A DNA stretch of 20,000 nt from Paramecium tetraurelia (taxonomy: Eukaryota): positions 171,158 to 191,157 of the forward strand of contig CT868061.1 in the NCBI GenBank assembly GCA_000165425.1, in the 5' to 3' direction. Below, piece after piece: positions 552-18,931 of the stretch. Under the pieces are notes generated by a model. It worked only from the letters and a program-made list of their open reading frames with translations, searched no databases and was not told where the DNA came from. How positions within the stretch are numbered: the stretch's first letter is position 1; each line of letters starts with the position of its first letter. The position numbers and the translations under genes were made by a program.

Positions 552-1603
552 ATGAAATATTATAAGCAAGGTCAATTGCTTTGTTACATCGGAACATGGA
601 TGCCTTTTGTTATATTAGTCACAATATTTCTATTCTTCTACGGAGTGTATATGTAGGTATATGATGCCTATTAATGTTCAAGACCTACTTGTTGCCCAGA
701 ATAAGATCGGAGTACATTGAAAAACCAGTGGTAGAAATAAACACTTACTTGATTCAATTAGTACACATCAATGACTATGTCTTCAGTAATTCAACTGTGG
801 TAATTACAGTATTATTGCATACAATACTTGTTCTCTTTTTAATTACATTAATAAGAGTAGTAACAACATTGCCTGGGAAAGTACCTAAGGAATGGCTGAA
901 CAGAGTGGAGGGAGAGATTAACAAGATGATTGAGAATGAGGAGAACATGATCAATTTTCACAAGAAAAGGATCATAGACATCAACATCCTTCTCTTCAGA
1001 AATAGATGATGAACAACGATTGTAATTGAATTCAAAAGCAAGGTTGGAATTGATAGATAAGTCTGGACATCGGTTCTGTAAGAATTGCTAGGCATTCAAA
1101 CCGAAACGTTGTCATCATTGTCGTCAATGCAAGACATGCTGGTTGAAAATGGATCATCATTGTCAATGGCTTAACAATTGCATAGGTTACAATAATTATA
1201 AAATGTTCATCAATTTGCTTGGTTATTCATGTATAAGATACATTATATCTAGGGTTGCTTATAAGTTTTATAATGCTAACTTACAGTCGTTGCTATTATG
1301 ACACTCTATATTCATATTCATCTGATAGTAAACTATTCCTGGTTTCCTTCACTTTTTTGTATTGTTGTTTCTTATGGATACTTTTAACGGCCTTCACGTT
1401 TTTCCACTTATGGTACTCTAATTCATTATAATGAGATCAATAGGGCTATCAAATCCAACATCACAACCCTTGAATATTGCGAGAATAAACCCAGACAACC
1501 AGTTCAGAAGAGTGCTTTAGAGAATATTGTTGAAGTGTTTGGCATCAATCCTTTAATTTGGTTCTTACCAATTTAACCAAATACGAAACCAATATTGGAT
1601 TGA
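552..1603 (+). CDS. DHHC-type palmitoyltransferase (zf-DHHC); apparent +1 frameshift near 966
   Basis: Motif [46 protein letters not shown], hydrophobic TM segments, an NITTLE motif and a C-terminal [11 protein letters not shown]. Tiny introns start at ~657, ~1231 and ~1413. An alternative start at 475 would need an unusually long 38-nt intron. Confidence 0.9.
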
Positions 1604-1651
1604 AAAAAAGATAAATAAATTTACATAATCATATAATTATATTTTTACAAA

Positions 1652-2271
1652 ATGGAAAAAATAGATATATTAGTTAAAGTGGTAATCATTGGAGATACAA
1701 CAGTGGGAAAGACAAACATTATGACGCAATATTGTGATACTAATTTTAAAATGAACTCTCTTCCTACAATCGGAGCTGATTCCAGAGTAAAGATGATTTA
1801 AATGAATGAAAGAGAAACTATAAAAATGATGATATGGGATACGTGTGGTCAAGAGCGTTTCAAATCCATTACAAAAAATACATTTAAAGGTGCATAGGGA
1901 TTTGTGTTGGTGTATGATATTAACATCAAAAAGCACTTTTGAACATGTGGAAGGTTGGCTAGAAGTAAAACTTAATTTAATCTAAGTCAATTAAAGACAA
2001 CATTGATACAAATACAGTTTCGATTGTTTTGGTTGGCAATAAGTCTGATCTAGATGAATTGAGGCAGGTTTCAAGAGATCAAGGACAGACTTTGGCCAAT
2101 AAACATAATCTCAACTTTTTTGAAACTTCAGCCAAGTTGGGAATTAATTTGAGTGAGGTTTTCATTTCACTTGCTAGAAATATCAGGAAAATCATAAACT
2201 CAGCAAATAAAGACACCGAGATGTTAACTACAGATAAAACTAAAGCTTAAAAGAAGAAAGGGTGTTGCTGA
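1652..2271 (+). CDS. Rab-family small GTPase; apparent +1 frameshift near 1921
   Basis: Motifs IIGDTTVGKT, WDTCGQERF, LVGNKSDL and FFETSAK, with a C-terminal KKKGCC prenylation motif. One 22-nt intron at 1965-1986. Confidence 0.93.
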
Positions 2272-2295
2272 TATTCAATATACTAAATTAATTAA

Positions 2296-2757
2296 TCATT
2301 ATGAAAGAATATTTTCTCTGCAAGTAGGACATTCTGGTTTTCTCAAAATCCATTCTTTTATGCAATCGTTGTGGAAATAATGATTGCATTATAGAATTTT
2401 AATTAAGATTTTCTCGTTTATCTCTAACAAACAAATTGAGCATACTCTACTTTGCTTATAATATATTTACTCTGACTCAGTAATTTCATCCACTCCAATC
2501 AGAATAGGAATGTCATCAAACAAATTCTTTGGTGTCTACTCTTTCAACACTTTTAAGTTTGTAGGTTTCAGTTAGGGGAATTGCAATAAATTTAGGTACA
2601 TGAAATTCTTTGTAAGGAAAGATTTTTTCAAAGACTCTATGTAATTGTTTCCCCAAAAGTATAGAGATTGTTGACTTATTGGCTTATGAATCTTTTTTTT
2701 AATTTCACAGACTTTGTCTTATGAACTGTTGGATAACTATTATTTTTTTTGATTCAT
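2296..2757 (-). CDS. RING-H2 (C3H2C3) zinc-finger protein, putative E3 ligase
   Basis: ORF MNQKKQQLSNSS... ends with CSICLLEINEKILIKILQCNHYFHNDCIKEWILRKPECPTCR. There is a possible in-frame 24-nt intron before the RING. Confidence 0.85.
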
Positions 2758-2773
2758 TTGAAAATTTATTTTC

Positions 2774-3352
2774 TCACATTTTTTTACTAGAATTTGATAT
2801 AAATAAAATATAAAACCTTAAATTCATTACCAAACTTTTTAATACAATTTAATCACAATAATAATTATAATTCACTAGACAAATCAAGAATTTATGATAA
2901 GTATTAAATTTTCTAATTGTCCATGTATTTCAAAGACTGCTGTCTATGTTACTGCAATTCGCTACTTAGCTGTTCAATTATCTTATCCCTATTTCGCAAT
3001 AAATTCTGACAATTCTATATGTCTTGAGCATATTGATTCTTTAATTTGGCCACTTCCTACTCCTTCTCCAATTACAAAGCATTCAAATACTCCTTCTAAT
3101 ATTGTTTTTCTGCTTCCAAATCCTTCTAACTCTACTCAGTCTTCACCTTATTTGCTCCTTAACTTTACTAACTATATTGCAATATCTCTTAATCCTTCTT
3201 GCTCACCTCCTTTGTCAACAATTACAACTTTGTATTTAAGTAATTGATCTGATCTCATTACTCAATATTATTACTTTCTATTCATACACCTATTACATCA
3301 ATTGAATCTCAGCCTACTTCAACTCCTCCAAACGTGCAATCTCTGAGTTCAT
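2774..3352 (-). CDS. Small coiled-coil hypothetical protein
   Basis: MNSEIARLEELKQAEIQLMQQVYEQK|INYLNTKLQLLTKEVSKKDQEILQ...LEAEKQYQKEYLNALQLEKEQEVAKLKNQYAQ. A 26-nt intron restores the frame. Exact start and stop are uncertain. Confidence 0.65.
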
Positions 3353-3462
3353 CCTATCGTTATTTAAATTAAATTATATTTTTGAAATCCTTACTATTTT
3401 TCCCTTTTGATCATCCAACACGAAAAAACAATTCAATATAAATTAAATATTCCTATTAATAC

Positions 3463-4446
3463 TCACTATTTTAACATCCTCGTCCAATCGTATGATTTCC
3501 ATATTAATTAAAATGCGTCATTCTCTTATTTGGCTTCCTACTCAGTTCTTGGCTTCGGACTCAAAACATTTGATTTCTCGACACTCAGAATCGATGCCAA
3601 TATCTCTCTAGCAAAATTCGATGAAAAATTATTCTCATTCTCAATCACATGAGCATATCCCAATTTTAAACTGAAATCTACATAAAAATATGCAAATCCT
3701 TTTGGAATCTATTTCCTTATGCCTCCCTTATTCTTTTGAATTTCAATGATCTTTTTGTGAGTAGCCCAGAATCCATCTAATTCATCCATCCCTTGTTTGA
3801 AATATAAATTTAAATTAGCCTCCTTGCTAATCTTATATGGTATAGCAACACATTCAATAATTGCATGAGGGACATATTTAAACTTGAAAGCATTCTCATA
3901 AAATATGCACTCCAAGTTTGCCTTATCAAATGCTCCAACCAAACATTTTTAAAAGTTTCTGATCTCTTCATAAGTCTCATCTTCCACATCTCTAATGCAT
4001 TAAACATGTTCCATTGGCACTATCAACAAGTGAGTGTAAGCATTATAAAACCCTTTAAATAGCACAATTATGATTTACTTTATTTTGGCAACACTAGCAT
4101 CACATTGTTGCTTTGACTTAGAATGTAATATTGACTTAATTTCTCATTGCTCAAACAAAACTCGCATTCAGAAATCGCCTTCTATTATTATCTTTACTAA
4201 AACAGCATTTCGCCCTTCTTTTAATTTTCCTTGTTCTTTTCCTATTTAGTTTTTTGATGATCTGATTTTTGATCATCATCCTCTAAGTCATCAAATTGTA
4301 GTCCTTTCTCCTTAATTCTTTATTTGTGCAATTGATCATCCATAATTCTAACTTTCTCTATTAATCAACAATAAGTAATTACTCTATCTAACAGGTTCCT
4401 CAATTTCATCTTCATACACCTTACGTACTTTCACTCCTTTAAGCAT
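3463..4446 (-). CDS. CWF19L2: CWF19-like protein 2 (CwfJ C-terminal domains; spliceosome-associated)
   Basis: Motifs CEFCL, HLLIVPMEH, YEEIRNFQKCL, CIFYE, HAIIECVAIP, WATHKKII, IPKGFAYFYVDF, GYAHVIEN and the terminal FQLIWKSYDWTRML. Two tiny introns. Confidence 0.9.
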
Positions 4447-4980
4447 TTATATTAAAATAAAAATAATATTGATATAGACAACCCAAGTTTCAATATTAAA
4501 TACATACAATAAGTGTATGAAAATGTAGCTGATAAGATGATCAATATACTGTCTAAATATATTTGTCACTCTATCTAAAACTCATATTTAAAGACAATAA
4601 AGATTGATATGTAAAATTCATTATGATATTGTAAGGTTGGCTATAGGTTCGTGTGGTTATTTATAGAATGTAAATAACATATATTTGGAAAGTGCCTGCA
4701 GTTACAAGAAGATTAGACATGAGCAGTATATTATGTAAAGAGTATTTAAAATGTCTGAAAATGAGGAACCTCTTTACTAGTTACATTAATTAATGCAAAT
4801 TAAAAAGCTATTATTTATTGTTGTTTGAAAATGGGATAACCAAAGAAAAGTATTGTAGAACTTAGGAATTCAGTACTAGATCTTGAATAATGTAATTGGG
4901 ATTAATAATTATTAAAAATGATTTATTTTATAATCCAATTTTGTATGTTAGAAATAATAATATATATTATATAATTTTAT

Positions 4981-6670
4981 ATGTAACCATCATCAAAATA
5001 GCCACCTAAGGAGGATGAGTAATGCTCGGTGGAGGATCATATACTGAAGAAGTTTGAATTGCTGGAATTTAAGGGGAAGGGAGCATACGGTGTGGTATGG
5101 AAGGCAATAGATCGTAAAACGAAATAAATTGTGGCACTAAAGAAAGTAAAGCTATTTATTTAATTCAGATTTTCGATGCTTTTCATAATGTAACTGATTC
5201 TTAAAGAACATTCAGAGAGGTGATGTTTTTGGAGCAACTGAACAATCATGAAAACATAATTAAATTGACATCTGTCATAAAGGCAGAGAACAACAAAGAT
5301 TTATATATGGTATTCGATTACATGGAGACAGATTTACATAAGGTAAGTATGTATGATTGAGAAGTAGGTCATACGAGCTAATATTCTTGAGCCTGTTCAC
5401 AAGAGATACATCGTGTATCAAGTTTTAAAGGGTTTAAAATATCTGCATACTGGAGAATTGATACATCGAGATTTGAAGCCTTCGAATTTGCTGATCAATT
5501 CAGAATGTAAAGTGAAAGTAGCAGATTTTGGATTGGCAAGGAGTGTAGCAAAACCAGATGACAACACAAACCCAATTCTAACTGAATATGTAGCTACTAG
5601 ATGGTATAGAGCCCCTGAAATATTGTTGGGATCTCAATATTATTCAAAGGCAGTCGATATGTGGAGTCTAGGATGCATTGTGGGAGAGATGATAGTTGGA
5701 AAAGCCATATTTCCTGGAACATCAACTATGAATTAGATTGAAAGGATAATCGAACTCTGTGATCGACCCAAACCTGAGGATATCGAAGCATTAAGAGCCC
5801 CATTAGCAGAACGAGTCTTGGATGATATAAAAACACAAAAGAGGAAGAGTTTTGCTTAGTATTTTTCTGCTGCCTCTGAAGATGCTATAGATTTTCTCAG
5901 GTAAATTATACAATATTTATGAATCTCATAGAAAAACGCTGGTTTACAATCCCAATAAAAGAATGACGGTAGAGTAGGCATTTGAGCATCGCTATGTCAA
6001 GGAATTTAAGAATTGTGAAGATGAAACTAAGAGAGGTATTGTCGTTAGTATTTTTGTAGACTCTCCTTTTGAAACATACATGGATGACAATCGCAAATAT
6101 TCGATAAAAGAGTACCAGAATTTTCTGTATAATCGCATAGTTTAAAAGAAGAGGAATGAACATAAATCATCATTGATGTTTAGAAACTAAAATAATGGGA
6201 GTGTCAATCTTAGCGTTGATAAATCCCCATCTCCAACTAAGAAGGATTCTTCTATAGTTAAGAAGGATTCAGAAACATCTAATATTGATAATGATTTTCA
6301 ACATCATGGTCATGGTCGTGCTCTTCATCAGAAGTCTTAGTCCTACTCTTAAGGGTAGTTTATGCAGAGGAAAAACACCTCACAGGAGGATACTTAGTTT
6401 TAGGTCTCGACTCACCAAAGTCCTACTTATAAGAAGCATCAATAGATGTTTCCGATTGTCGATTCCAGCAGTCCAATTAATAAAGGCAGTAGAAAGTCCT
6501 CCTTGGATAAAAAGTTACAAAGCACCATGACTTCTGCTCTCATGTAGGCTACTCTGTCTCAATAATAATTCTCAAGAAAAGGATCTTAAGGTTCTATATC
6601 TAAAACAACTGTTTTCAATAAATCCACCATTAACACACAATACAACTCCTTGTTTCAGAAAAAAAAGTGA
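4981..6670 (+). CDS. MAPK15: Mitogen-activated protein kinase, ERK7/ERK8 (MAPK15)-like
   Basis: Motifs [52 protein letters not shown] and [14 protein letters not shown] (TEY activation loop), followed by a long S/Q-rich tail. Four tiny introns start at ~5146, ~5343, ~5901 and ~6036. Confidence 0.93.
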
Positions 6671-6727
6671 ACTTATTAAATATCTATATACCAAATTTAT
6701 TATCTTTCAAAGATCATTAATATAATA

Positions 6728-7807
6728 ATGAAAATTAGCATAATTTTAGGTCTAATCAAGCTAAAAAAGGAAAGAAGATAAATATAAAAAATATTGGACA
6801 ACATCCATCCTGAAGAATAGCATTTCGCATCCAATAAATAAGAAGAAATTCTATATTACAATATCTACATGTTGACCATACTCCCTATTTTGAGGATATT
6901 AGAAATTGTGAAACACGCTCTAATTGAAAAATTCATCACAAAAATCCCAGCATTTCATCCCTTCACTAAATAATAGGTTGAAGAAGAGTCCTTGCATATT
7001 TTCAACGACTTCCTTGACTCTCTGTCTTAAAAAGGACAAATGAATGTCAATAAATATATACACAAGGTAATAAAAAAATACACCACATACTAAGAAGCAT
7101 TAGAGATGGCCACTTCTGCTAAGACTCTGTTAGTTTAACCGAATGATTTCTAAAGACAATCTTCAATATAATTAAAGCATATCAATGGGAATGTGAAAGT
7201 CAAATCAAAGATGTCTGATTTTTATGAGAATACTGCAGATGATCATTTGTAAAGGAATATTGCAATGAATAGAACCTTCGATTTACTTTACATTTTTATA
7301 GGAGATATACATTATCACAAATTACTAGAGGATCCAGATTATTTATATAACCAGATCTAGCATATGAATCCAGATTATTGGAAAACCAAATACACACCAG
7401 TTATGCACAAAATAAGTGAATGCATTGATGAAGACTTGGAGGATTTCATTAAGCAAGACGATAAGAATCAGAATAAATAAGAATAATAATAATAGAAACA
7501 AGAGTATTGTTGCATACTAAGAGCAATTTGTTAATATGCAGTAGACTTATTAAAGAGTGTGAATGTGGCTACTCTGTATTATTATTCAGTTAATTATTCA
7601 TTTCAAAAATTTGTAAACCGTTTGGATGGAGAGGAGGATTTGCAGAGAATATTATATTTGACTTAGAATCATAATAGAGAGAGGAATTACAAATAACATG
7701 TGAAAGACTTTTTGAGAGGACGTTCAAATTTCATTAGAGAGATGCGAAATAGGTGTTTGATTGATTAGGGAGAAAGAGAGTTGATAAAAGTAATTTTAAA
7801 TTTCTGA
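6728..7807 (+). CDS. Hypothetical protein (~359 aa)
   Basis: Uninterrupted ciliate-code ORF MKISIILGLIKLKKERRQIQKILDNIHPEEQ...GERELIKVILNF*. No domain recognised. Confidence 0.75.
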
Positions 7808-7822
7808 GTTTTTTATTTATTT

Positions 7823-8501
7823 ATGTTAAAACCACATAAAGTGTTGTTGCATGAGTTTGCTGAACTGATATTGAATCAGAGAGTAGAGTAGAAACCATCA
7901 AGTTTGAGACATTCGAATGTACTGAATTTGTGGCAGATCAAGGGAATATGGGTGGATGAGAATTCAGATTTAAGAGTGCAGCTAAATTTCTACATTTAGA
8001 AATGGAATACTAGGATTCTAGTTGAAGTTTGGGTCTTAGAAGTAATCATAACAAACGAGTAATAGAACAACACTAAAAAGATAATTTAAGATGAGTGATC
8101 AGGAATTTAAGAAGACACAACGACTGGCTCTTTTGCAATCGAGGAGTATTCTAGGAATATTGGCCAATCTCCCCCTCTCTCAAGAAATCCCTTCCTTTAA
8201 TAAGCATATGAAAATTGCATACAATACTGAAAATAGTACAATCCCAACACATTTCCATACCATCAACTTCCCAGTCATCCCATGTTCAAGTAAAAAGGTC
8301 ACTTACTTGTATATGCAGGTTCACTACTAAAAGGAAATTATATTCTCTCCACAACCAAAATTAGCACAAAAACCATTCACTCAAAGAGAAGATGCTGAAA
8401 TGACCACTTTGCATCAAATTCAAAAGAGTTTCAGAAAAAGAACCAAGGCTTCTTCTTAGATAACTGAAACTCTGGAATACTTTATTTGCACTGTGAACTG
8501 A
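7823..8501 (+). CDS. Hypothetical protein
   Basis: MLKPHKVLLHEFAELILNQR... joins NGILGFQLKFGSQKQ...MSDQEFKKTQRL...TLEYFICTVN*. The join needs either a 22-nt GC-AG intron (7978-7999) or a frameshift. Confidence 0.6.
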
Positions 8502-8544
8502 TAAATTACTATCTATATATTTGTATATAATAATTATTAACTGA

Positions 8545-10580
8545 ATGCACATTGATCCAACTCAGATGGTCAAGATTTCATTCTAAGCTAGCATTGTGAT
8601 TTTCATTTCTTTAACATTTGCAGCAATTCTATTTGGTTAACCTGAAAAGTTGACAAGAGGCTTCGATCCAGATGGTAATTAGCATTATTATAAAAAGGAA
8701 TTGCATGTGGTTCTGATTTTGGATCTAGAGATTATCCTTACATTTATTTTGGCAATCCTACTCCCAATACTTTACATTAAACTGTCTGTGTGAAATCATG
8801 TCCTAAGCCAGATCATAAAAACGGCAGTACAAATACAAATCATATCTTTTAGTGCCAAAACAGTTAGATTGCATGCCTAACTCTATTATTCAGTAATGTT
8901 AAGCTAAGTTCTCTATAGACCATCCAGAAACTTAATTTTTAATATATGATACCTTCCTTTATAAGGGAAACATTTGTATGCCTCGAAATTTAGCTTATTA
9001 TGAGGCGATCAAAGAAATATCCACACCTCCTTCTAGATTAAGTAATACCAGTGACGTCTACAAGAATAAATGGATGCTCCTTATCTTTATACTCGTTGCA
9101 GGCGTTGCATCGAAATAATTACTCACATAACTGAAGGCAAATACTTAATATAGTGTTTGGGGCTTGACATTTGGACTATTCATTTTTGTGGGAACTTTGG
9201 GAGTTATTTTTGTTTCTTAAGCCAGAGATGCTATCGCCAATTCAATAGAAACTAATTCCATGTCTGCTTTTTAGGTGGATGAAGAATATATTTTGAAAAT
9301 GAGTAATGTGCCCAATCCTATTAAAATGGTCATCTTATCTTTAATTTTTGTAATTCTAACATTTTATGGAGCTTATTTCTTATACAACAATTACGATCGA
9401 ATCAAAGATCTGTCACAATTATTTGAATAGGTTGAAATATATATGGCTGATCATGAATACCTATAAGAAGCATCTTACCCTATGATTTTGGTCCTTAATT
9501 TCTTTCTATTCTTAACACTCTATACCATTCTGTATACATTTATCAATATTTCTAATAGATCATTAAGAGCTTGTTTCGTGATTGATTTCTAATAGATCGG
9601 ACCCTTTGAAAAAATCTAAGGAGGTGTTCTCTATTATTTCCAAATCTTGATAGCGTTTTTCTTCTTTTGGGGAGTCCAAGTGATCTTTGGAATTAACAAC
9701 TATATGGTGTCGTCATCTCTGGTGCAGTGGATTCAAGTGGGTTACAATCAACACCAAGATGTACAATACAATAGGAATTAAGCTACACTTATTTTAACCA
9801 GATACTTTATGCAAGAAGCCTTCTATAACATTGGTAAAATAGCATTTGCTTCATTTCTCTTATTGGTATCTCCAGTTAAATTTGTATGCGATGCTATTAA
9901 GGATTGGGCTGTCAGAAGGTAAAATTAGAAGTTTAGAAATTTACTTACTAAATGTTGCTGTCTGCCCTTCATTCAAATATACAAAAAAACCAGACAAATT
10001 GAAGAGGTTGTTTACATTGAATAAGCAATCAATAGGAAGTATTGCATAACCGTTAATGTCTGTTTTAAATTCATTGAGGACTACTTGGAATTAAGATTAG
10101 AGGATTCAAATGCTGCTGAGCTTTTTGAATAACTAAGTACTTTCATTCATATAAACTTTAGGGAATACTGTAGATTCATTTTTATTGATCATCAAAATAT
10201 TTATTGCACTACTTTGTGCTATCATTTGTAAGTTTATTTTGAGTTTCAATTACTTTTCAAATCATATGTACGAAACCAACCTCACTTCTTTGATAGCTGC
10301 TATCATAGGATATTATGTTGCATCATTATATTTCTAAATCTATTCGATTGTTCTATAAGGTTTGGGTTATATTTATATAAGAACGATGAATATTTGTAAA
10401 AAGAACAATGAGAATTATGAAAGGAATTAATAAAAAAGAAGAGATACCGCATTTGAAACATTTAAAAATATTTATAAAGTACCTATGTATATCATAACTT
10501 TTTAGGATTTTTCGGAAATTATGATTCACTTTGAAAATAAGATTAGAAATTAGAAAACCAAAGAATAACTTCCTCATTGA
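8545..10580 (+). CDS. Choline transporter-like (CTL/SLC44 family) membrane protein
   Basis: N-terminal TM segment, then GFDPDG|IACGSDFGSRDYPYIYF...TVCVKSCP (CTL ectodomain signature), many TM segments and FYNIGKIAFASFLI. Several tiny introns. Confidence 0.8.
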
Positions 10581-10856
10581 TAAAATATATGCTTTTACAA
10601 TTATATATATTATCAATAAATTTTCTATAATAAATCTGCGTATCACTAAAAGTGTAAGCTAATAAATAAGTATCAAGTAAGAATTGGAGTGAGTTAATAC
10701 CTAAATTATAACTTATTATCTTGAAGAACAAAAACAATTTATTTTTTCAATAAATTATTTGAAATTCTTAGATCTTATAATATATTTAAAGCATTTATAT
10801 TGAAAATTATTTTATTATTGTTTAGACATACATCATATTGAAAATTAATATAATTA

Positions 10857-12859
10857 ATGAATTCAAAACCGAAAAGTATTTTTGAATGTTTGGATGAACA
10901 CTTTTAGGAGTTAGATTAAGAAGATGAAGATGAAGAGAATGAAATAATGCAGAATGAAAATATTACAAATTATGATTAGGGTCCAGGATAAAAATAAGAT
11001 AAGTCTAAACATATAGCGAGACCAAAGGATATAATCAAATGGGAAGATATCAATAAATTAGATGTTTAAGAAGATGATTTGTTTGAAATTTAAGAAGCAC
11101 CAGAAGAGAGTGTTGTTTCATAAGTCAAAGATAATGAAAATTTTAATTTCGATTATGAAATACCAGTCCTAATGTTGGATGATGACAGTCAAATAAGTCA
11201 AGGAAAAAAAATTAAATTAGCTGGTTTAAATAATTACATTAAATCTAAAGAAAAGGAAAGGCAGTAGGTTGAAGAAAATTTTTAAAGAATTGTTTAACAA
11301 AAAGCTGAAGAATTAATTCAAGAATAAAAAAAGGAGGAGTTGATGAAAAAGATATAAAAGCAAAGTATTCCTTCTAAATTGCAATAAAAAGTCTAATCAC
11401 TATTTTAATAAGTCGATTATGAAGCCAATCCAATAAAGATAACTGCTTAATAAAGTATTACTAATTCAACAAATACCCCTTCTTTAACTAAAAAAAAATA
11501 AAATGATAATGAACAAGTGAGTAAATTGAAGGAAGAAATACTGAATCTCAAAAACCTAATAAATGACTATAAGTTACGCTACAATCAAGATTAGGATTTA
11601 ATTAAGACTCTTAGAGTAACTATTCAGAAAGGAGACACAAATTAATCACGTACAAGTTGTTCAACTAAAGCTAGCAAAACAGATGATTTAATAAATGAAA
11701 ATGAGCAATTGAAATAGGATATGATTACTTTAAAATAGCAACATTAAAAAGAAATTGAGTCATTGAAATAGTAATTATCAAGAGTTTAGAAGATATAAGT
11801 AGGATGTCAATAAAGATAATAGAAGGATCAAGTAATACCAGATAAAACTAAAGAAGAAATTACAAAATTATAGGCAGAAAAAGCCTAACAGGGTTCAGAT
11901 TTCAGAAATAAATTAAATGAAGCAACTCTAAAAATTTAATAAAAGGATTAGGAATTAGAAAAATTAAAAAAACAAATTAAGACTATGTAAGAATAAAAAG
12001 AATAACCAGATAAATAATAGATCGTAATTGAAGATTTAAAATAATAAATATAAAAGCTCAATCAACAGATTGAAGAAATAAAATAGAAGTACTTGTTTGA
12101 TAATTAACTTAAACTATTATTCCCAATATAATAAGATAATGTTTTAGCTGTCCTTAATATCTTTTACAAATTAGAAAACACTAAAAATGCAGTCAATTTT
12201 ATAAAAACTAAATTGAATACTGGATTTACTTATGTTTACTCAAAAATATACAATGTCTACAAATGGTTTAAATAAATGATTAAATTTAAGTGGACCAAAT
12301 CAGTTGTGCATCATCCTGATAATTAACAACTTGTAAAAGAAGCTATTTAAAAAATAAGGACTAATCCCACTGTTTTAGAAACTGAAAATTAAAAATTAAC
12401 AAAAACATTGATCTAGTTAGGCTAAGAGAACAAGGATCTTTAAGAAAAGTTATCCTCATTATAAATATAATACAATTAGAAAATTGAAATCTATGGTTAA
12501 TTAGATGAATTAGTTAGAGTTGATAAAATATAATTAGCAAATCAATTAATGATGCGTATACTGAAAAAAGAAGCTGAGGATAGAAATAATGAGTAGTAAA
12601 TAGAATACCCTGAATTATAAATTGTTAAAGTATTCTAATTACAAATATTTAGAAATATGCTGAGTTGATAATGCAATCAACTCTTCCTCAATATCAAAAG
12701 TCGTAATCACCTAAACAGGATAAAAACACTAAGGCTGTTGCATCCCTATAAGGAATCAATAATAAATAGGTCTCCATTGCAGTTACAAAATGTGGACACA
12801 TTGAAAGGCACTAAAAAAGAGATTAAAAGCCTACTAAAGGGTAATATTATAATAAATGA
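10857..12859 (+). CDS. Long coiled-coil protein with an acidic N-terminus
   Basis: MNSKPKSIFECLDEHFQELDQEDEDEENE... followed by K/E/Q-rich heptad segments such as KLKEEILNLKNLINDYKLRY and ENEQLKQDMITLK. Tiny introns near 12.09-12.3 kb and at 12630. The 3' exon structure is uncertain. Confidence 0.75.
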
Positions 12860-13374
12860 ATAATAAACTTTTAATTTAATTATTTTTACATTTAATAATG
12901 CAAAATATTATTAAAGATAACATTTTCAACTAATGAAATCAAATAACGCCTAAAAATTTGATTTTAATTAATAGATAAAAGAAAACGCTTATTAACAAAT
13001 TAGTTACTTCAAATCATAATAAGAAGTTAATTTCGGAAAAATTAATCTTTAGAAACTAGCTTAGAAGAAACAGTTTTCTCTCCCTCCTTATTAGTTTTTA
13101 AATTCTAGAAAGCTTTTTCAATAACAGAGTGAAGTGTTATTTAATATTATTTTACTTTTGTTTTTTAATTTCTATAATAATTTGAAATGCATATCATAAA
13201 ATAATTCAATATTTGAAAGAAAGAAAGAAAGAAAAAAAAAGTAAAATGAAATTTTAAACATGAGGTTAGGATTATTTAACCTTGTTCCATGTTGAATTTA
13301 TTTTTAACAATGTTAAATAACAATGTAAATAGAATAATGGTGTGAAATAGTTAATTTTAATATTTGCCAATAAA

Positions 13375-16300
13375 TCAACTACTTTTATGATTGAATGATT
13401 TGTAATTAGAATTCTGAAGAAATTATTTTAGAATTTCATATTTATCCTGCTTTGAATTTTCGTTCTGATTATATACGGTTGTTTATTCTAAAAAAGATAT
13501 GAGTAAAACTACCCTTATGCATATGATAATTTTTATTTTCAGGATTTTTCTATATTGCAATATCATATTATGCTTATGCTTCAGTAATACGATTTAATTT
13601 GATTAGCGTATTTGCTATTTCAAATATATTAATACCTTTATAAAAATATAGATCAGAACAACTAGGATTTATTAAAATTGCCTAATCATAATATTTTAAA
13701 GCTTCTTCCAAAAGATCCATTTAGTGTAATGTAAATGCTAATCAAGTATTCCTTTTTTATTTACCTTTATTAAAATAAAATTGATAGCACTCAGGATATT
13801 TCTAAATAGCTATATCAAAACTTTCTAATGATTGTTCAAAAAGTTTCATTTTAGCTAGAGCAATTGCTAATAAATATGAAATTGATTATGCCTTTATTGT
13901 TGTAAAATTTTGCATTATTTGAATCCCTTTAAATAGCAAGATCAAAAAATTCTAATGCTTCTTAAAACCTTTGCATTTCTATTAAAGTAGTAGCTTTTTA
14001 TGAATTTAGGTTAAACGTACCTTTATTTTCATAATATTCTGAATTTTCAGGATTCTTCTTTATAGCTAAATCATAAAATTTTAATGCTTCCTCATTTCGA
14101 TTCTGTTTGGATAAAGTATTAGCTATTCTTAAATAAATAAAATAACCTTTATTATGATAGTACTCTGGATTTTCAGGATTTTTCTATATGGCTAAGTCAT
14201 AATATTATAAAGCTTCTTTAATTTTATTTTAATAGACTAAAACATTTGCTATTAGATTATATATTAGATTATACCCTTATTATGATAAAGCTCTGAGAAT
14301 TCAGCATCAATACCTATGGCTAAATCAAACTATTATAAGGCTTCTTAATATTAATCTAATTTGCTTAGCGCAATTCCTTTTTGATAATATATTTGGCAAT
14401 ACCTTTTTTGTTATAAAAGTCAGCATTTTTTTAGTTTCTCTCAATTGCATAATTATAATATTTTAATGCTTCATTTAAAGAATTCATATCTTCTAAAGTC
14501 ATAGCTATCAATAAATATCAAATATTTACCTTTATTATAATAAAATGTAGCATTTTCTGGATATCTCTAAATCGCATAATTATAATACTCCAAAGCCTCT
14601 TCAAAACGATGCAATTTAATTAAAGTATTTGCTGCAAAAATATATTACATATATGACAAAACCTTTCTGATTATAAAATAATGGATTTTCTGGGTTTTTT
14701 TAAATAGCAATTTCAATTTATTCTAAGGCTTCTGAAAAACGTTACAATTTTTTTAAAACAATAGCTATTATTATTACTATATATAAACATTTATTATAGT
14801 AATTTTCTGGACTTTGAGTATTTATTTTAATAGCATAATCATAATATTCTAATGCTTCTTAATACCGATTCAATTTAAAATTAAAGCACTTGCTTACATA
14901 TGTATATTTATTTTTTAATACCTTTGTTACTGAAAAATTCCGAATTTTCTGGGGCTTTTTTTATCGCTTTTTCAAAATATATTATTGCCTCATCAATTCT
15001 ATTTAGATCTTCTAGAGCAAAAGCTATTAAATAATATATAAATATAATTGATGCCTTTTTCGTTATAATGATCAGGATTATCAGAGTTAATTTAAATAGC
15101 AATATCAATCTATTCCAAAGCTTCTTCTTAACGGTTCAAGGCGATTAAAGTAATTGCTTTTAAATAATTTTGAGTGACAATTTATACCTTTCTATGAATA
15201 ATAATCAGACATTGTAGGATTTTTTGAAATAGCTAAATCACAATTCTGTAATGTTTCTTCAAACCGATTCAATTTAAATAAAGCCATAGCTGCTCATTAA
15301 GTCTTTCATTTTACCTTTACAATAATATAAATCGGGATGTTAAGGATTTATTTTGATAGCTAAATCAAAATGCTCTAATGCTTTTTCAAGTTGGTTTAAA
15401 TGGGCTAAATACTTGCTATACAATTTTCAACTTTTTTTACCTTTAATGTAATAATGGTCATAAAATTCAGGGTTTTTTTAAATAGAATAATCACAATTTT
15501 CTAATGCCTCTTCATAACGGTTCATTTGACATAAAGTGAAAGCTAAAATATTGTTTTTCATTACCTTTGTAATAATACTACTCCGAGTTTTCAGGATTTT
15601 TTTCAATTCCTTAATCATAATATTCTAATGCTTCTTAATAACGATTCAATAAATGTAATGCAAATCCTATTCAATTATATTTTGATTCTTACCTTTTTAT
15701 CTATAATTATCACCATTTTATGGATTTTTTTAAATAGCGCATTCAGACTGTTCTAATGATTCCTCAAACCTATTCATTTTTTGTAAAGTGTTTGCTACCG
15801 AATTTATAGCTTATTACCTTAAACTTTAAAATATATTTCTTTCTCTGGATTTCTCTAAATAGCAGCAACCACATTTTTTAATGCCTATTCATACTCTTTG
15901 CATTCAAATAAAGTATTTGCTTATTAATTTATAACTGTTATACCTTTATTATTATAATATTCTGAATTTTCGGGATCAATTGAAAGAGCTTTGTCATAAT
16001 GATTTTATGCTTCTTCAAATCTTTTTAATTAGGCTAAGGTGTTTGCTGTAGAAGAATGACTGAATCAATTCATACCTTTATTGTTATAATAATCCGCATA
16101 TTTTGGATTTATTTTTATTGCTTAATCATAACATTTTAATGCTTCGTCTAAACGATTCAATTCATGTAGAACACTTGCTGTTCAATAATAATGGATTTAT
16201 TATACCTTTATTATTGTAATAATCTGCATTATTATGATCTTTCGAAATTGCCAAATCATAATATTCTAATGCCTCCCATAGACGACTCATTTCATGTAGA

Positions 16301-17269
16301 GTAATTGCTTATGCTTTATGATTTTTTTATACCTTTGTTATAATAGTATCCAGCATTTTACGGATTTTTTTTTATAGCATAATCAAAAAATGTTAACGCC
16401 TCATGAGGCCTATCTAAGTCAATTAATGTGTTTGCTTAAATTAAAAAATTGTAATTTCACCTTTGTTGTTGTAATAATCTGGATTTTCAGGATCTTTTTG
16501 GATAGCATAATTGTTATATTTTAGTGCTTCATGAAAACGATTTACTTTTTTTAAGGCAATTGCTACATAATATGTTATCTTAATTTATACATTTTTCATT
16601 GTAATAAGTTGAGTTAGTAGGATCTCTCTGAATGGCTTTATCATAATATTGTAATGCTTCTTCAAATCGATTAGAATCAAATAAAATGTTAGCTTTTAAT
16701 TATAAATTTAATTAAACCTTTATTGTAATAATAATCTGGAGGATGAAGATCATTCTTACTTGCATCAGCATTTTTACTCTATTATACTGCCTTCACTTGA
16801 TTAATTTAGGCTGATTATTTTTAAGTGATATTTTGCACTATCTAATTTGTTTATAATTCGTTGATTGTATTTAAACTCAGTTAATTTAATACATTCAATT
16901 AACTCTACTTTTTCTATTTATCATTAAGATTCTTTAATTCCTCTAATTTTTATTTTCCATTTGTAGTTTATTAAATTTTACCCAGTTCTAGTTAGATAAA
17001 CTTTAATCAATTTACAAATCAACTTCCTCAACTTATTAATATTTGTGCAAATTTTTCTCTTTGTGAAAATTTGAATCCCTGTTTGCTTGTATACCTTTTA
17101 TTGTAATGAAAATGCTCCCATATCTATATATTAGAATAGTATTAAACCTTTCATTATCTATTATATAGGTATTTCTTTAAACATATGATATGTCCTAATT
17201 AAATTAAGATTGGTTATGGAGAATTTAAATAATTAAGTTTTCTAATATCCATTTGCATTCAGCTTGCAT
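13375..17269 (-). CDS. Large TPR-repeat protein: Q/K/N-rich N-terminus plus 25 one-exon TPR units; apparent frameshifts (assembly error or pseudogene)
   Basis: Repeat consensus A-N-T-L-x-x-L-N-R-F-E-E-A-L-E-Y-Y-D-x-A-I-x-K-N-P-E-N-x-D-Y-Y-x-N-K, e.g. ANILFDSNRFEEALQYYDKAIQRDPTNSTYYNEK. The last exon reads EQTTVYNQNENSKQDKYEILKQFLQNSNYKSFNHKSS*. The start codon is uncertain. Confidence 0.9.
13488..16717 (-). repeat. Tandem array of 25 TPR exons (102 nt) separated by 21-31 nt phase-1 introns (period ~128 nt)
   Basis: Recurrent AAAG|GT donors and ag|C(A/T) acceptors. Exon boundaries were counted by hand, e.g. 16591-16692, 16461-16562, 16333-16434 ... 13636-13737, 13513-13614. Confidence 0.93.
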
Positions 17270-17383
17270 TATAAATCTTTTTAAATCAATTATATCATTT
17301 TTTTTATTATAATTATAATATTTTAAATAGGCAATATTGTAATGTGATCATTTTTTGTATCTTTTCTCATAATTCTAGGTGAT

Positions 17384-18339
17384 NNNNNNNNNNNNNNNNN
17401 NNNNNNNNNNNNNNNNNNNNNNNNNNNNNNNNNNNNNNNNNNNNNNNNNNNNNNNNNNNNNNNNNNNNNNNNNNNNNNNNNNNNNNNNNNNNNNNNNNNN
17501 NNNNNNNNNNNNNNNNNNNNNNNNNNNNNNNNNNNNNNNNNNNNNNNNNNNNNNNNNNNNNNNNNNNNNNNNNNNNNNNNNNNNNNNNNNNNNNNNNNNN
17601 NNNNNNNNNNNNNNNNNNNNNNNNNNNNNNNNNNNNNNNNNNNNNNNNNNNNNNNNNNNNNNNNNNNNNNNNNNNNNNNNNNNNNNNNNNNNNNNNNNNN
17701 NNNNNNNNNNNNNNNNNNNNNNNNNNNNNNNNNNNNNNNNNNNNNNNNNNNNNNNNNNNNNNNNNNNNNNNNNNNNNNNNNNNNNNNNNNNNNNNNNNNN
17801 NNNNNNNNNNNNNNNNNNNNNNNNNNNNNNNNNNNNNNNNNNNNNNNNNNNNNNNNNNNNNNNNNNNNNNNNNNNNNNNNNNNNNNNNNNNNNNNNNNNN
17901 NNNNNNNNNNNNNNNNNNNNNNNNNNNNNNNNNNNNNNNNNNNNNNNNNNNNNNNNNNNNNNNNNNNNNNNNNNNNNNNNNNNNNNNNNNNNNNNNNNNN
18001 NNNNNNNNNNNNNNNNNNNNNNNNNNNNNNNNNNNNNNNNNNNNNNNNNNNNNNNNNNNNNNNNNNNNNNNNNNNNNNNNNNNNNNNNNNNNNNNNNNNN
18101 NNNNNNNNNNNNNNNNNNNNNNNNNNNNNNNNNNNNNNNNNNNNNNNNNNNNNNNNNNNNNNNNNNNNNNNNNNNNNNNNNNNNNNNNNNNNNNNNNNNN
18201 NNNNNNNNNNNNNNNNNNNNNNNNNNNNNNNNNNNNNNNNNNNNNNNNNNNNNNNNNNNNNNNNNNNNNNNNNNNNNNNNNNNNNNNNNNNNNNNNNNNN
18301 NNNNNNNNNNNNNNNNNNNNNNNNNNNNNNNNNNNNNNN
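17384..18339. other. Assembly gap (956 N)
   Basis: Run of N. Confidence 1.
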
Positions 18340-18931
18340 AATAATAGGCTCGCAAGGATAGATCGATTTTTGGGATAACGTTAGTTGTTGGAAATGTATT
18401 TAAACTCTGATTTGCCATAACATGGCTCCTATTTATAGCTTAAGTTTAAATCAATCTGAAACTTTATTAATCTCATGTGCATTTGACTGTTCTATCAACA
18501 TTTCTGCCAAATAGGGTTAATAATGGATTGTCAAATAAATAATCAATATTGATATTCATGGATTGAGTTTACTTTTTATCGATGATGGCTATTTTGTTTT
18601 TCAATCTATAGAGTTAAAAATTTTAGTATATTAATATAAGAGTGAGTAGGACATTTTTGTTTAAATTAAGGACATGGCTATTTAGGGAAAAGAAAATCAT
18701 TTGGATGCCTCAAAATTTGAATATAATGCCGAAAAAGATATCATACTTAAAAAAAATGGATAATTTCTCAATCTAATTAGTGGTTATAAAGAGACCTAAT
18801 AATTAAGTTAATCTTCGCTTTAGTTTTCAAGTAATCGAATATCCTGCGCACTTAGTAAAACTGCCGATTATCTCGTAGTATTTAACGCCTAAGAACATTA
18901 ATTTATTATATATATATTAAAGCAATTTTGA
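18340..18931 (+). CDS. WD40-repeat protein, 3' part (5' part lies in the gap)
   Basis: Ciliate-code ORF IIGSQGQIDFWDNVSCWKCIQTLICHNMAPIYSLSLNQSETLLISCAFDCSINISAKQGQQWIVKQIINIDIHGLSLLFIDDGYFVFQS...SKTADYLVVFN...LKQF*. Shows the WD40 H-x-x-x-I-Y-S-L-S-L-N...LISC-x-x-D pattern. Confidence 0.82.

What the first reader, a model, noticed from the sequence alone, without database searches (positions are those of the whole stretch)
13488..16717. One-exon-one-repeat TPR array: 25 symmetric 102-nt exon cassettes, a candidate exon-shuffling recognition system in Paramecium
Seen in the sequence: 25 consecutive exons, 23 of them exactly 102 nt (one 34-aa TPR). All 26 flanking introns are 21-31 nt, phase 1, and sit at the same codon (..YYNK A|..). 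Intron sequences look unrelated to each other while exon length and phase stay fixed, so any exon can be added, lost, swapped or skipped without breaking the frame. Known: Tetrahymena has rapidly evolving LRR genes built from fixed 90-bp exon arrays. The brown alga Ectocarpus has ROCO-LRR and NB-ARC-TPR genes with one-repeat exons proposed to diversify by shuffling. Inference: this may be a TPR-based ciliate counterpart, a modular variable binding protein for non-self, prey or endosymbiont recognition. I am not aware of it being characterised in Paramecium, but I cannot search the literature.
Basis: partly seen in the sequence, partly recalled or inferred. Interest (0 to 1): 0.88.

Follow-up and report, generated by a model that had tools for sequence, protein, structure and literature searches.

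The report
One-repeat-per-exon TPR gene, Paramecium
A Paramecium tetraurelia gene encodes a long TPR-repeat scaffold protein with each of 25 repeats on its own 102-base exon; the layout is real and striking, but it belongs to an abundant gene family already noticed in print and shows no sign of recent exon shuffling.

Summary
On the minus strand, 26 phase-1 introns of 21-31 nt split the same codon and bound 25 exons. In the window 23 exons are 102 nt. The other two (101 and 104 nt) break the frame. An independent DNA contig (run X1, depth 174) differs there by one inserted base and two missing bases, which makes all 25 exons 102 nt and in frame.

Each exon is one 34-residue TPR period. A neighbouring ORF is 99% identical to a P. 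tetraurelia protein.

The array looks old. Exon identity averages 62% (maximum 74.5%) with no neighbour effect. Synonymous sites are saturated, and introns are no more alike than shuffled ones. No pseudo-exons were found, and no domain other than TPR.

Published work on P. tetraurelia already describes "TPR coding exons", each with a 27-28-bp germline IES about every 130 bp, function unknown (PMC6771405).

Best reading: an intact member of that family, built by ancient tandem amplification of an exon-intron unit. An immune-like shuffling role is unsupported. Splicing was not shown directly.

The parts
13375..17370 (-). Whole TPR-array gene as modelled: 28 exons, 1,095 codons from the ATG at 17370 or 1,071 from the ATG at 17298; stop TGA at 13377-13375
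   Evidence: The 5' end is a model only: frame 1 is still open at the assembly gap at 17384.
16988..17015 (-). Candidate 28-nt GTA..TAG intron joining the N-terminal ORF to the frame of the array. Inferred, not shown.
   Evidence: the only single-intron path from an ATG to the array frame without a TGA that uses a GTA..TAG intron.
16718..16987 (-). Last part of the pre-array exon. It is Q/N/K-rich and probably coiled-coil, and ends in a partial TPR unit (16791-16718).
   Evidence: nhmmer match to exon-model positions 35-102, E 4e-4; no Pfam family for the ORF 16677-17006.
16591..16692 (-). TPR exon 1 (102 nt); upstream intron 16717-16693 (25 nt, GTT..AAG)
16461..16562 (-). TPR exon 2 (102 nt); upstream intron 16590-16563 (28 nt); the preceding exon ends AAT, so the split codon reads Ser
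16333..16434 (-). TPR exon 3 (102 nt); upstream intron 16460-16435 (26 nt, GTG donor)
16206..16307 (-). TPR exon 4 (102 nt); upstream intron 16332-16308 (25 nt)
   Evidence: TRF period 130 over 16072-16309
16076..16177 (-). TPR exon 5 (102 nt); upstream intron 16205-16178 (28 nt)
   Evidence: 73.5% nt identity to exon 4
15944..16045 (-). TPR exon 6 (102 nt); upstream intron 16075-16046 (30 nt, 3n, with an in-frame TGA)
15818..15919 (-). TPR exon 7 (102 nt, the most divergent unit); upstream intron 15943-15920 (24 nt, 3n, stopless)
15693..15794 (-). TPR exon 8 (102 nt); upstream intron 15817-15795 (23 nt)
15565..15666 (-). TPR exon 9 (102 nt); upstream intron 15692-15667 (26 nt)
15441..15542 (-). 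TPR exon 10 (102 nt); upstream intron 15564-15543 (22 nt)
15315..15415 (-). TPR exon 11: 101 nt and frame-broken in the window, 102 nt in DNA run X1 (extra A behind 15406 on the + strand); upstream intron 15440-15416 (25 nt)
15188..15289 (-). TPR exon 12 (102 nt); upstream intron 15314-15290 (25 nt)
15055..15156 (-). TPR exon 13 (102 nt); upstream intron 15187-15157 (31 nt)
14922..15023 (-). TPR exon 14 (102 nt); upstream intron 15054-15024 (31 nt, GC donor)
14789..14892 (-). TPR exon 15: 104 nt and frame-broken (in-frame TGA) in the window, 102 nt in DNA run X1 (2 letters missing at 14877); upstream intron 14921-14893 (29 nt)
14663..14764 (-). TPR exon 16 (102 nt); upstream intron 14788-14765 (24 nt, 3n, stopless); the split codon reads Ser
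14530..14631 (-). TPR exon 17 (102 nt); upstream intron 14662-14632 (31 nt)
14403..14504 (-). TPR exon 18 (102 nt); upstream intron 14529-14505 (25 nt)
14275..14376 (-). TPR exon 19 (102 nt); upstream intron 14402-14377 (26 nt)
14147..14248 (-). TPR exon 20 (102 nt); upstream intron 14274-14249 (26 nt)
   Evidence: the most similar exon pair is 20/21, 74.5% nt
14021..14122 (-). TPR exon 21 (102 nt); upstream intron 14146-14123 (24 nt, 3n, stopless)
   Evidence: TRF period 126 over 13983-14253
13892..13993 (-). TPR exon 22 (102 nt); upstream intron 14020-13994 (27 nt, 3n, stopless)
13765..13866 (-). TPR exon 23 (102 nt); upstream intron 13891-13867 (25 nt, GC donor)
13636..13737 (-). TPR exon 24 (102 nt); upstream intron 13764-13738 (27 nt, 3n, with an in-frame TGA)
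13513..13614 (-). TPR exon 25 (102 nt); upstream intron 13635-13615 (21 nt, 3n, stopless)
13375..13487 (-). Terminal exon after the 26th intron (13512-13488, 25 nt): 37 non-TPR codons plus the TGA stop
   Evidence: (ORF 13375..13845)

Best explanation
This is an intact macronuclear gene of Paramecium tetraurelia for a TPR-only protein of about 1,070-1,095 residues. It has an N-terminal region of roughly 180-210 residues with no recognisable domain, ending in a Q/N/K-rich, probably coiled-coil stretch and a half repeat. Then come 25 consecutive 34-residue TPR units and a 37-residue tail.

Every unit lies on its own 102-nt exon, because one ancestral unit was amplified in tandem at the DNA level. 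That unit was a TPR period carrying a tiny phase-1 intron in the codon for TPR position 8 (Gly/Ala). In the germline it probably also carried a short IES. In-register unequal recombination between units is the likely mechanism. The symmetry of the exons is therefore a by-product of how the array grew, not a device for shuffling.

The amplification is old. Units have diverged to saturation at silent sites and in their introns. Selection has kept the 34-residue fold signature, the exact exon length and all 52 splice sites.

The product most likely forms a long TPR superhelix, roughly three turns at about 8 repeats per turn. This figure comes from general TPR knowledge and was not modelled here. 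Its concave face, lined by the most variable positions, would bind one or more protein partners in the cytoplasm as a scaffold. The two frame breaks in the window are errors of the reference sequence, or variants of it, and are not features of the gene.

Shown: exon-intron anatomy, TPR identity, intactness in an independent DNA run, age of the repeats, species, family membership by sequence. Inferred: splicing, the start codon, growth by unequal recombination, germline IESs at this locus, scaffold function.
For: Anatomy:
- 26 phase-1 introns and 25 exons.
- All 25 exons are 102 nt once the two indels seen in the X1 contig (depth 174) are applied.

Coding capacity:
- 0 TGA in 850 in-frame codons against 11 and 63 in the other sense frames; 40 in-frame TAA/TAG read as Gln.
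- Strong Pfam TPR_1/TPR_2 matches, E 1e-9 to 1e-18, on read-through ORFs.
- Seven of the eight classical TPR signature positions are kept: L 25/25, A 23/25, A 22/25, Y 22/25, A 21/25, P 19/25, Y/F 18/25 (the mapping to canonical positions is mine).

Age of the array:
- Exon nt identity averages 0.623, maximum 0.745, with no lag effect.
- Introns are no more alike than shuffled ones, and exon similarity does not predict flanking-intron similarity.
- Same-residue codon identity is 0.608 against 0.589 expected.

Species:
- The neighbouring ORF is 99% identical over 99% of its length to a P. tetraurelia macronuclear protein; P. octaurelia is 92%.

Family:
- The best-identity hits are P. tetraurelia and P. 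octaurelia TPR proteins with the same K|A unit junction.
- These proteins carry only TPR domains.
- PMC6771405 (passages; 20 of 270 supplement rows) reports TPR genes as the most IES-dense genes of P. tetraurelia. [quoted passage not shown]
- The rows seen give 27-28-bp IESs spaced 122-131 bp in two genes, apart from one 93-bp step and one 130-bp IES. That matches the 123-133-bp exon-plus-intron period here.
- PMC3464196 (passage) attributes multi-copy IESs to expansion or recombination of TPR and WD40 repeats.

Indirect hint of splicing:
- Four runs (one on record as RNA) hold 0.50-0.56 of the sampled 31-mers.
- The expectation is 0.48-0.59 for a fully spliced transcript and 0.968 for DNA carrying the X1 differences.
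- The DNA-like runs show 0.92-0.96.

The model protein has no hydrophobic segment reaching 1.6 on a 19-residue Kyte-Doolittle scan.
Against: - No direct RNA evidence. The three RNA or RNA-guessed runs gave only 18-25-nt scraps when laid. This may be because I left the likeness threshold at 95, and 26 short gaps may have failed it.
- No annotated protein for this locus turned up. The best hit among proteins of 271-2000 residues was 50% identical.
- The putative N-terminal ORF has no homologue and no Pfam match. The start codon and first intron are therefore guesses, and the frame is still open at the assembly gap (17384-18339).
- Two introns begin with GC and five with GTT or GTG instead of the usual GTA. 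Their splicing is assumed only because the downstream exons are intact.
- Germline IESs at this locus could not be checked.
- TRF reports two neighbouring unit pairs at 76% matches including the intron, so some duplications may be younger than the bulk.
- Repeat trees on 34 residues carry little signal, so ancient exchange between genes cannot be excluded.
Confidence: 0.75

Rival explanations
1. One reading: the array is an actively shuffling set of exon cassettes that generates variable TPR binding proteins for recognition of non-self, prey or endosymbionts. [quoted passage not shown]
For: - All exons are symmetric (phase 1-1) and of one length, so adding or losing a unit keeps the frame.
- The family is abundant in P. 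tetraurelia.
- Multi-copy IESs are attributed to expansion or recombination of TPR repeats elsewhere in the genome.
- One paralogue (P0001) has units up to 85% identical in protein, which suggests younger expansions in other members.
- The most variable unit positions include four that map to the concave face of helix A (the mapping is mine).
Against: - At this locus no unit pair exceeds 74.5% nt identity, silent sites are saturated and introns are unalignable.
- There are no inactivated exons in the flanks or on the other strand.
- No NB-ARC, ROCO, kinase, signal-peptide-like or membrane segment was found.
- Introns of about 26 nt offer almost no room for intronic recombination.
- Paramecium's narrow intron-size range (passage; the size figures are recalled) argues against skipping a 102-nt exon.
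- Variable concave-face positions are a general property of TPR proteins (recalled), not a mark of immune receptors.
Confidence: 0.07
2. The locus is a decaying pseudogene: two exons are frame-broken, two donors are GC, and no protein is annotated.
For: - The window has a 101-nt exon and a 104-nt exon, the latter with an in-frame TGA.
- There are 2 GC donors and 5 donors other than GTA.
- No database protein matches the locus.
- No in-frame ATG exists in the exon directly upstream of the array.
Against: - The independent DNA contig (X1) restores both exons to 102 nt.
- Fourteen other DNA-like runs from several studies show the same 0.96 word share expected if they also carry the X1 version. 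This is inference; only X1 was laid.
- 0 TGA in 850 codons against 11-63 in the other frames.
- The fold signature is kept in all 25 units.
- All 26 acceptors and 24 of 26 GT donors are intact.
Confidence: 0.05
3. The array mainly matters as a germline-soma interface. Each unit carries a short IES in the micronucleus, and imperfect, temperature-sensitive excision tunes or diversifies expression of the TPR protein in the new macronucleus. This idea was raised for the family in PMC6771405.
For: PMC6771405 (passages) reports that TPR genes are over-represented among genes hit by IES retention at 18 and 32 degrees C, and that they are enriched two-fold in Dcl5-dependent IESs. The IES spacing in two family members equals the unit period seen here.
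Against: - Nothing was tested at this locus. No micronuclear sequence was available, and the macronuclear contig of X1 shows no insertions.
- The authors themselves offer the simpler reading that IES-dense genes are just more exposed to excision errors.
- IES retention would mostly truncate the protein; 'PTC_INDUCED True' stands in many of the rows seen.
Confidence: 0.1

Closest known systems
P. tetraurelia TPR-motif gene family with one IES per TPR-coding exon (e.g. PTET.51.1.G1500001, G1000001, G1000002; Vitali, Hagen & Catania 2019, PMC6771405)
   Same: Same species. Both are TPR-only proteins. The repeat-per-exon layout is implied by 'TPR coding exons', and the ~130-bp unit period is the same. 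The repeat consensus and K|A junction match those of database paralogues. Function is unknown in both.
   Different: This particular locus was not found as an annotated protein. Its germline IES content is unknown. The paper deals with IES retention, not with exon length, phase symmetry or the age of the repeats.
Tetrahymena LRR genes with arrays of exactly 90-bp exons (Xiong et al. 2019, PMC6564038)
   Same: Both are ciliate genes with long arrays of exons of one exact length, one structural repeat per exon, and introns all in one phase. Both are explained by expansion of an exon-intron unit. This array resembles their older 'group II' genes, which lack nucleotide-level repeat similarity.
   Different: LRR versus TPR, 90 versus 102 nt, phase 2 versus phase 1. 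The Tetrahymena group III genes show recent, species-specific clonal expansions that are not seen here. The paper states that P. tetraurelia LRR genes lack such a peak, and the passages I saw say nothing about TPR exon lengths.
Ectocarpus NB-ARC-TPR (and ROCO-LRR) genes with repetitive exons (Zambounis et al. 2012, PMC3341825)
   Same: One TPR per exon, with exons of identical length divisible by three.
   Different: The Ectocarpus exons are 126 nt (a TPR plus a linker). They are attached to an NB-ARC domain, interspersed with inactivated exons in long introns, and reported with signs of positive selection. Here there is no NB-ARC, no pseudo-exons, introns of only 21-31 nt, and no recent turnover.
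Long TPR superhelices such as the TPR domain of O-GlcNAc transferase (recalled; one source names paralogue P0001 after it)
   Same: Consecutive, consensus-like TPR_1 repeats without linkers. These are expected to form a continuous superhelix that binds partners on its inner face.
   Different: There is no catalytic domain here, and about twice as many repeats. The resemblance is at the level of the repeat consensus only: bacterial and archaeal TPR proteins score as high as the Paramecium ones.

Membership tests
Tetratricopeptide repeat (Pfam TPR_1/TPR_2) | 34-residue units matching the TPR profile above the curated threshold | tested here: met
   TPR_1 scores 66.2, 37.8 and 46.7 bits (cut-off 27.8) on three read-through ORFs that cover 3, 2 and 2 units.
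Tetratricopeptide repeat (Pfam TPR_1/TPR_2) | Conserved small and large hydrophobic signature positions (classical 4, 7, 8, 11, 20, 24, 27, 32) | tested here: met
   seven of the eight positions are conserved in 18-25 of 25 units. Position 7 is Lys instead of Leu (24/25). The mapping to canonical numbering is mine.
P. tetraurelia IES-dense TPR gene family (PMC6771405) | Belongs to P. tetraurelia and resembles its TPR proteins in sequence | tested here: met
   (neighbour 99% identical to a P. tetraurelia protein); 50-59% identity to P0001, P0002 and P0018 (P. tetraurelia) and P0061 (P. octaurelia), with the same unit register.
P. tetraurelia IES-dense TPR gene family (PMC6771405) | Unit period of about 130 bp, with one TPR-coding exon per unit | tested here: met
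   exon plus intron is 123-133 bp. IES spacing is 122-131 bp in two family genes (20 of 270 rows seen).
P. tetraurelia IES-dense TPR gene family (PMC6771405) | A short IES near the 5' end of each TPR exon in the germline genome | not testable with these tools
   No micronuclear sequence was available. The supplement held is cut before the likely scaffold. A TA at exon nt 10-11 in 25/25 units is a possible junction, but Leu codon usage explains it equally well.
Exon-shuffled candidate immune receptors (Ectocarpus NB-ARC-TPR type) | Repeats each on one symmetric exon of fixed length | tested here: met
Exon-shuffled candidate immune receptors (Ectocarpus NB-ARC-TPR type) | NB-ARC, ROCO or another signalling domain attached to the repeats | tested here: not met
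   no Pfam family in the N-terminal ORFs, and paralogues carry TPR families only. Caveat: sequence hidden in the gap 17384-18339 was not seen.
Exon-shuffled candidate immune receptors (Ectocarpus NB-ARC-TPR type) | Inactivated or stray repeat exons in introns, flanks or the opposite strand | tested here: not met
   apart from the 25 exons and one half unit, no hit better than E 1.3 in the 20-kb window on either strand.
Exon-shuffled candidate immune receptors (Ectocarpus NB-ARC-TPR type) | Recent duplication or exchange of exons and positive selection | tested here: not met
   Searches show no recent duplication or exchange. Positive selection as such was not tested, because silent sites are saturated.
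Tetrahymena 90-bp-exon LRR arrays | LRR repeats on 90-bp exons with phase-2 introns | tested here: not met
   Here the repeats are TPR, the exons 102 nt and the introns phase 1. This is an analogue, not a member.

The most novel reading that the evidence does not exclude
In Paramecium the TPR family is built from a three-layer cassette: a 102-nt exon, a ~26-nt intron and a ~27-bp germline IES. In-register recombination between cassettes in the germline, together with condition-dependent IES excision during macronuclear development, would make the number and integrity of TPR units variable between lineages or even between sexual generations. That would be a ciliate-specific way to diversify or switch a large set of binding proteins. 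This 25-unit gene would then be an old, fixed member of an otherwise dynamic system.
Probability: 0.06. Interest if true: 0.8.

Novelty: new member of a known kind. Interest (0 to 1): 0.35.

Why it matters
The locus is a clean, extreme example of how tandem amplification of an exon-intron unit produces a long array of symmetric exons, here in a genome whose introns are at the lower size limit for splicing. The 26 introns share one origin yet have diverged completely, while staying within 21-31 nt. That makes the locus a natural experiment on the constraints on tiny introns, including two GC donors and five stopless 3n introns.

Practically, it flags two indel errors in the reference sequence. 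These probably explain why no protein model for this large gene was found.

It also sharpens a testable question about the abundant Paramecium TPR family, whose function is unknown. Are its arrays static scaffolds, as this one appears to be, or do younger members still gain and lose units, and what role do the per-unit germline IESs play?

It does not provide evidence for a ciliate immune-receptor system.

Tried and rejected
- Whole-genome exon-length histogram: not possible, because no genome is held for this window.
- Direct splicing evidence: runs X20, X17 and X19 were laid together with DNA run X1. The RNA or RNA-guessed runs gave only 18-25-nt pieces belonging to other contigs. I had left min_likeness at 95, which may have excluded contigs with 26 short gaps, and the single call allowed was used. 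The joints listed for X1 (skips of 909 and 2375) have sides of 20-25 nt and come from other contigs that share short TPR-like words. I treat them as noise.
- N-terminal homologues: none among 80 candidates of 269-2000 residues. BLASTP against P0001 gave only a weak match (E 0.073) to TPR units. By eye I suspected decayed TPR remnants near 17100-17160, but nhmmer does not support them.
- Orthologue comparison of unit number and order: no orthologue identified. The best P. octaurelia hit (P0061, 59% in its best stretch, 4 clean units) is not demonstrably orthologous.
- Family size from sequence searches: not informative. TPR proteins of bacteria and archaea score as high as the Paramecium ones: 11,827 hits at E<=0.001, and of the 10 top hits looked up only 2 were Paramecium.
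- Repeat-level comparison with paralogues: only ungapped, near-full-length HMM matches were kept (27 units from 6 proteins; other matches were dropped). It shows no gene-specific clustering of the window's units, but 34 residues carry little signal, so no tree was built.
- IES positions for this locus: the held copy of Supplemental Table S2 of PMC6771405 is cut, and only 20 of 270 TPR rows were read. The locus was not located.
- Earlier notes of this scan: three look-ups, nothing found.
- TA at exon nt 10-11 in 25/25 units as an IES footprint: rejected as evidence, because the other conserved Leu codon also ends in TA in 21 of 22 cases.

Full report
WHAT IS THERE

The feature lies on the minus strand. 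Searching for donors of the type ..AA(A/G)G|GT and pairing each with the acceptor that keeps the register gave 26 introns of 21-31 nt (mean 26.1) and 25 internal exons. Every intron is in phase 1 and splits the first codon of a 34-residue unit. That codon reads Ala in 21 of 25 units, Ser in 2 and Gly in 2.

Read with the ciliate code, the exons give units that Pfam recognises as TPR_1/TPR_2 well above threshold. By my mapping, the intron sits in the codon for TPR position 8, the small Gly/Ala residue of helix A. Each exon therefore carries one repeat period, offset by seven residues from the Pfam repeat boundary. Seven of the eight classical signature positions are conserved in 18-25 of 25 units.

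THE TWO ODD EXONS

In the window 23 exons are 102 nt. Exon 11 is 101 nt and exon 15 is 104 nt, and both destroy the frame; exon 15 then runs into a TGA.

I laid four public runs on 13000-17383. A 12,777-nt contig of DNA run X1 (depth 174) covers 13254-17383. It differs from the window at five places only:
- three C>T substitutions (17057, 17059, 17175);
- two letters missing at 14877;
- an extra A behind 15406.

Both indels fall in A-runs. Applied in a script, they turn both odd exons into 102-nt exons that read as regular TPR units. So the array is 25 of 25 exons of 102 nt.

Fourteen DNA-like runs from several studies hold 0.96 of the sampled 31-mers, and two more hold 0.95 and 0.92. The share expected for DNA that carries these five differences is 0.968. 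This suggests, but does not prove since only X1 was laid, that the window's version is a reference error rather than a strain variant.

After correction the coding frame has no TGA in 850 codons, against 11 and 63 in the other sense frames and 4-13 on the opposite strand. It contains 40 TAA/TAG codons read as Gln.

ENDS OF THE GENE

Downstream, a terminal exon (13487-13375) adds 37 non-TPR codons and a TGA.

Upstream, the exon that ends at 16718 finishes with a half unit (16791-16718) preceded by a Q/N/K-rich stretch without a Pfam match. It has no in-frame ATG. An exhaustive search of ATG-to-array paths found one canonical GTA..TAG intron (17015-16988). This intron links an upstream ORF with ATGs at 17370 or 17298. 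It gives a protein of 1,095 or 1,071 residues with one terminal stop and no membrane-like segment.

This 5' model is unproven:
- the ORF is still open at the assembly gap (17384-18339);
- it has no homologue among 80 candidates;
- it has no Pfam family.

Beyond the gap lies the 3' part of a plus-strand gene with a WD40 match just below Pfam's cut-off (25.6 against 27 bits).

SPECIES AND FAMILY

A neighbouring 608-codon ORF (10842-12668) is 99% identical over 99% of its length to a macronuclear protein of Paramecium tetraurelia. The next best matches are P. octaurelia (92%), P. pentaurelia (82%), P. primaurelia (80%) and P. sonneborni (69%). The window is therefore P. tetraurelia macronuclear DNA, which fits the tiny introns, the code and the 22-26% G+C.

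A three-unit read-through ORF found P. tetraurelia TPR proteins P0001 (856 aa, 50%) and P0002 (590 aa, 44%) as the best longer relatives. It found no protein that could be this locus's own product.

The exhaustive search gave 11,827 hits at E<=0.001. Of the 10 top hits I looked up, 2 were Paramecium (P0018 P. tetraurelia; P0061 P. octaurelia). The named ones among the other 8 were prokaryotic or generic TPR proteins, and some had no name. The repeats are so close to the general TPR consensus that bit scores do not delimit the family. The Paramecium members stand out by higher identity (51-59%) and by the same K|A junction between units.

P0001, P0002, P0018 and P0061 carry only TPR-type Pfam families above the cut-off.

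AGE OF THE ARRAY

- The 25 exons are on average 62.3% identical in nucleotides (range 45-74.5%). Neighbours (62.8%) are no closer than units 2-7 apart (61.4-63.4%).
- The best pairs are 20/21 (74.5%) and 4/5 and 9/15 (73.5%). TRF's two period-126/130 hits at 76% matches correspond to the two neighbouring pairs.
- Where two units have the same residue, they use the same codon in 60.8% of 4,242 comparisons. Expectation from the gene's own codon usage is 58.9%. Silent sites are therefore saturated.
- Intron cores are 56.6% alike against 55.2% for shuffled introns. Exon similarity does not predict similarity of the flanking introns (Spearman -0.04 and -0.02).
- At protein level the window's units are as far from each other (mean 0.44, maximum 0.68) as from units of five other Paramecium-type family proteins (0.43-0.50, maximum 0.71). 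P0001 has internal pairs up to 0.85 (only ungapped near-full-length matches were kept).
- A profile of the 25 exons finds nothing else in the 20-kb window on either strand better than E 1.3, apart from the half unit.

The array is thus old and, at this locus, quiet.

WHAT IS IN PRINT

- PMC6771405 (Vitali et al. 2019; passages read; 20 of 270 TPR rows of Supplemental Table S2 seen). TPR-motif genes are among the most IES-rich and the most IES-dense genes of P. tetraurelia, with 1,135 of 44,928 IESs. [quoted passage not shown] 8E legend). The function of these proteins in Paramecium is stated to be unknown.
- In the rows I saw, two genes carry 27-28-bp IESs spaced 122-131 bp, with one 93-bp step and one extra 130-bp IES. 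That is the same period as exon plus intron here (123-133 bp).
- PMC3464196 (passage) ascribes IESs present in 3-6 copies to expansion or recombination of TPR and WD40 repeats.
- PMC8670300 (passage) calls the TPR domain 'extremely abundant' in P. tetraurelia genes.
- PMC6564038 (passages) describes Tetrahymena arrays of exactly 90-bp LRR exons with phase-2 introns. It states that P. tetraurelia LRR genes lack such a peak. TPR is listed there only among domains of species-specific genes.
- PMC3341825 (passages) describes the Ectocarpus NB-ARC-TPR genes: 126-nt TPR exons, inactivated exons in introns, and some positive selection.
- Six full-text searches found no paper that analyses 102-nt symmetric TPR exons in Paramecium as such. 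Subscription journals and bioRxiv supplements were not searchable.

HOW IT MOST LIKELY AROSE AND WORKS

A single TPR period that already contained a tiny phase-1 intron was amplified in tandem. By analogy with its relatives, it probably also contained a short germline IES. In-register unequal recombination between units keeps the frame automatically, so the symmetry is a consequence of the growth mode.

Afterwards the units diverged. Selection kept the 34-residue fold, the exon length and the splice sites, and Paramecium's tight intron-size window kept the introns at 21-31 nt.

The product should be a cytoplasmic TPR superhelix of about three turns. Its most variable positions include four of the top six by entropy that map to the concave face of helix A (the mapping is mine). 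These would contact protein partners. Such variability is usual for TPR proteins and does not by itself indicate an immune-type receptor.

With introns this small there is little room for intronic recombination. Skipping an exon would mean removing about 155 nt in a genome whose introns are narrowly size-limited (passage; the figures are recalled).

SPLICING

Splicing was not shown directly. The RNA or RNA-guessed runs X20, X17 and X19 gave no usable alignments, possibly because of the 95% likeness setting.

There is an indirect hint. Four runs hold 0.50-0.56 of the sampled words, and 0.48-0.59 is expected if only exon-internal 31-mers are present.

The conservation of all exons downstream of the two GC donors also argues that those introns are removed.

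VERDICT

The gene is intact in an independent data set. It is a member of a known, abundant but functionally uncharacterised P. tetraurelia family whose repeat-per-exon layout and per-exon IESs have been noticed in print.

The exon-shuffling, non-self-recognition reading is not supported at this locus. It remains a low-probability possibility for the family as a whole.

Noticed in passing
window 14877-14878 and 15406/15407: The window differs from an independent DNA contig (run X1, depth 174) by two indels in A-runs. Each breaks the reading frame of a TPR exon. They are probably errors of the reference sequence and would derail any gene model here.
   Followed up: yes
window 17057, 17059, 17175: Three C>T differences (+ strand) between the window and the X1 contig, all in A-rich context in the putative 5' part of the gene near the assembly gap.
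   Followed up: partly
window 15054-15024 and 13891-13867 (minus strand): Two of the 26 introns begin with GC instead of GT. The downstream exons are intact, so GC-AG splicing is implied but unproven. A further 4 donors are GTT and 1 is GTG, rather than the usual GTA.
   Followed up: partly
introns at 15943-15920, 14788-14765, 14146-14123, 14020-13994, 13635-13615 (minus strand): Five introns have a length divisible by three and no in-frame TGA. If retained, they would insert 7-9 residues without triggering a stop. This is why several multi-unit 'ORFs' read straight through introns.
   Followed up: partly
nt 10-11 of each of the 25 TPR exons: A TA dinucleotide (the Leu codon TTA or CTA) is present in 25 of 25 exons. 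It could mark the germline IES junction reported at the 5' end of TPR exons in relatives, but codon usage alone may explain it.
   Followed up: partly
window 17384-18339: An assembly gap of 956 N lies between the TPR gene's putative 5' end and a plus-strand gene.
   Followed up: no
window 18341-18931 (+): The 3' part of a plus-strand gene, with a WD40 match just below Pfam's cut-off (25.6 against 27 bits), transcribed divergently from the TPR gene.
   Followed up: partly
window 10842-12668 (+): A long coiled-coil-type ORF, 99% identical to a P. tetraurelia protein that one source names as a centrosomal protein. Orthologues in four sibling species are 92-69% identical, which makes it a useful synteny anchor for finding the TPR gene's orthologues.
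   Followed up: partly
window 1-10500: By eye, from the ORF list only, the upstream genes include a DHHC-type zinc-finger protein (~950-1600 +), a Rab-like GTPase (~1600-2270 +), a RING-finger protein (~2300-2820 -), a protein kinase (~5060-6670 +) and a multi-pass membrane protein (~8700-10400 +). None was tested against a family library.
   Followed up: no
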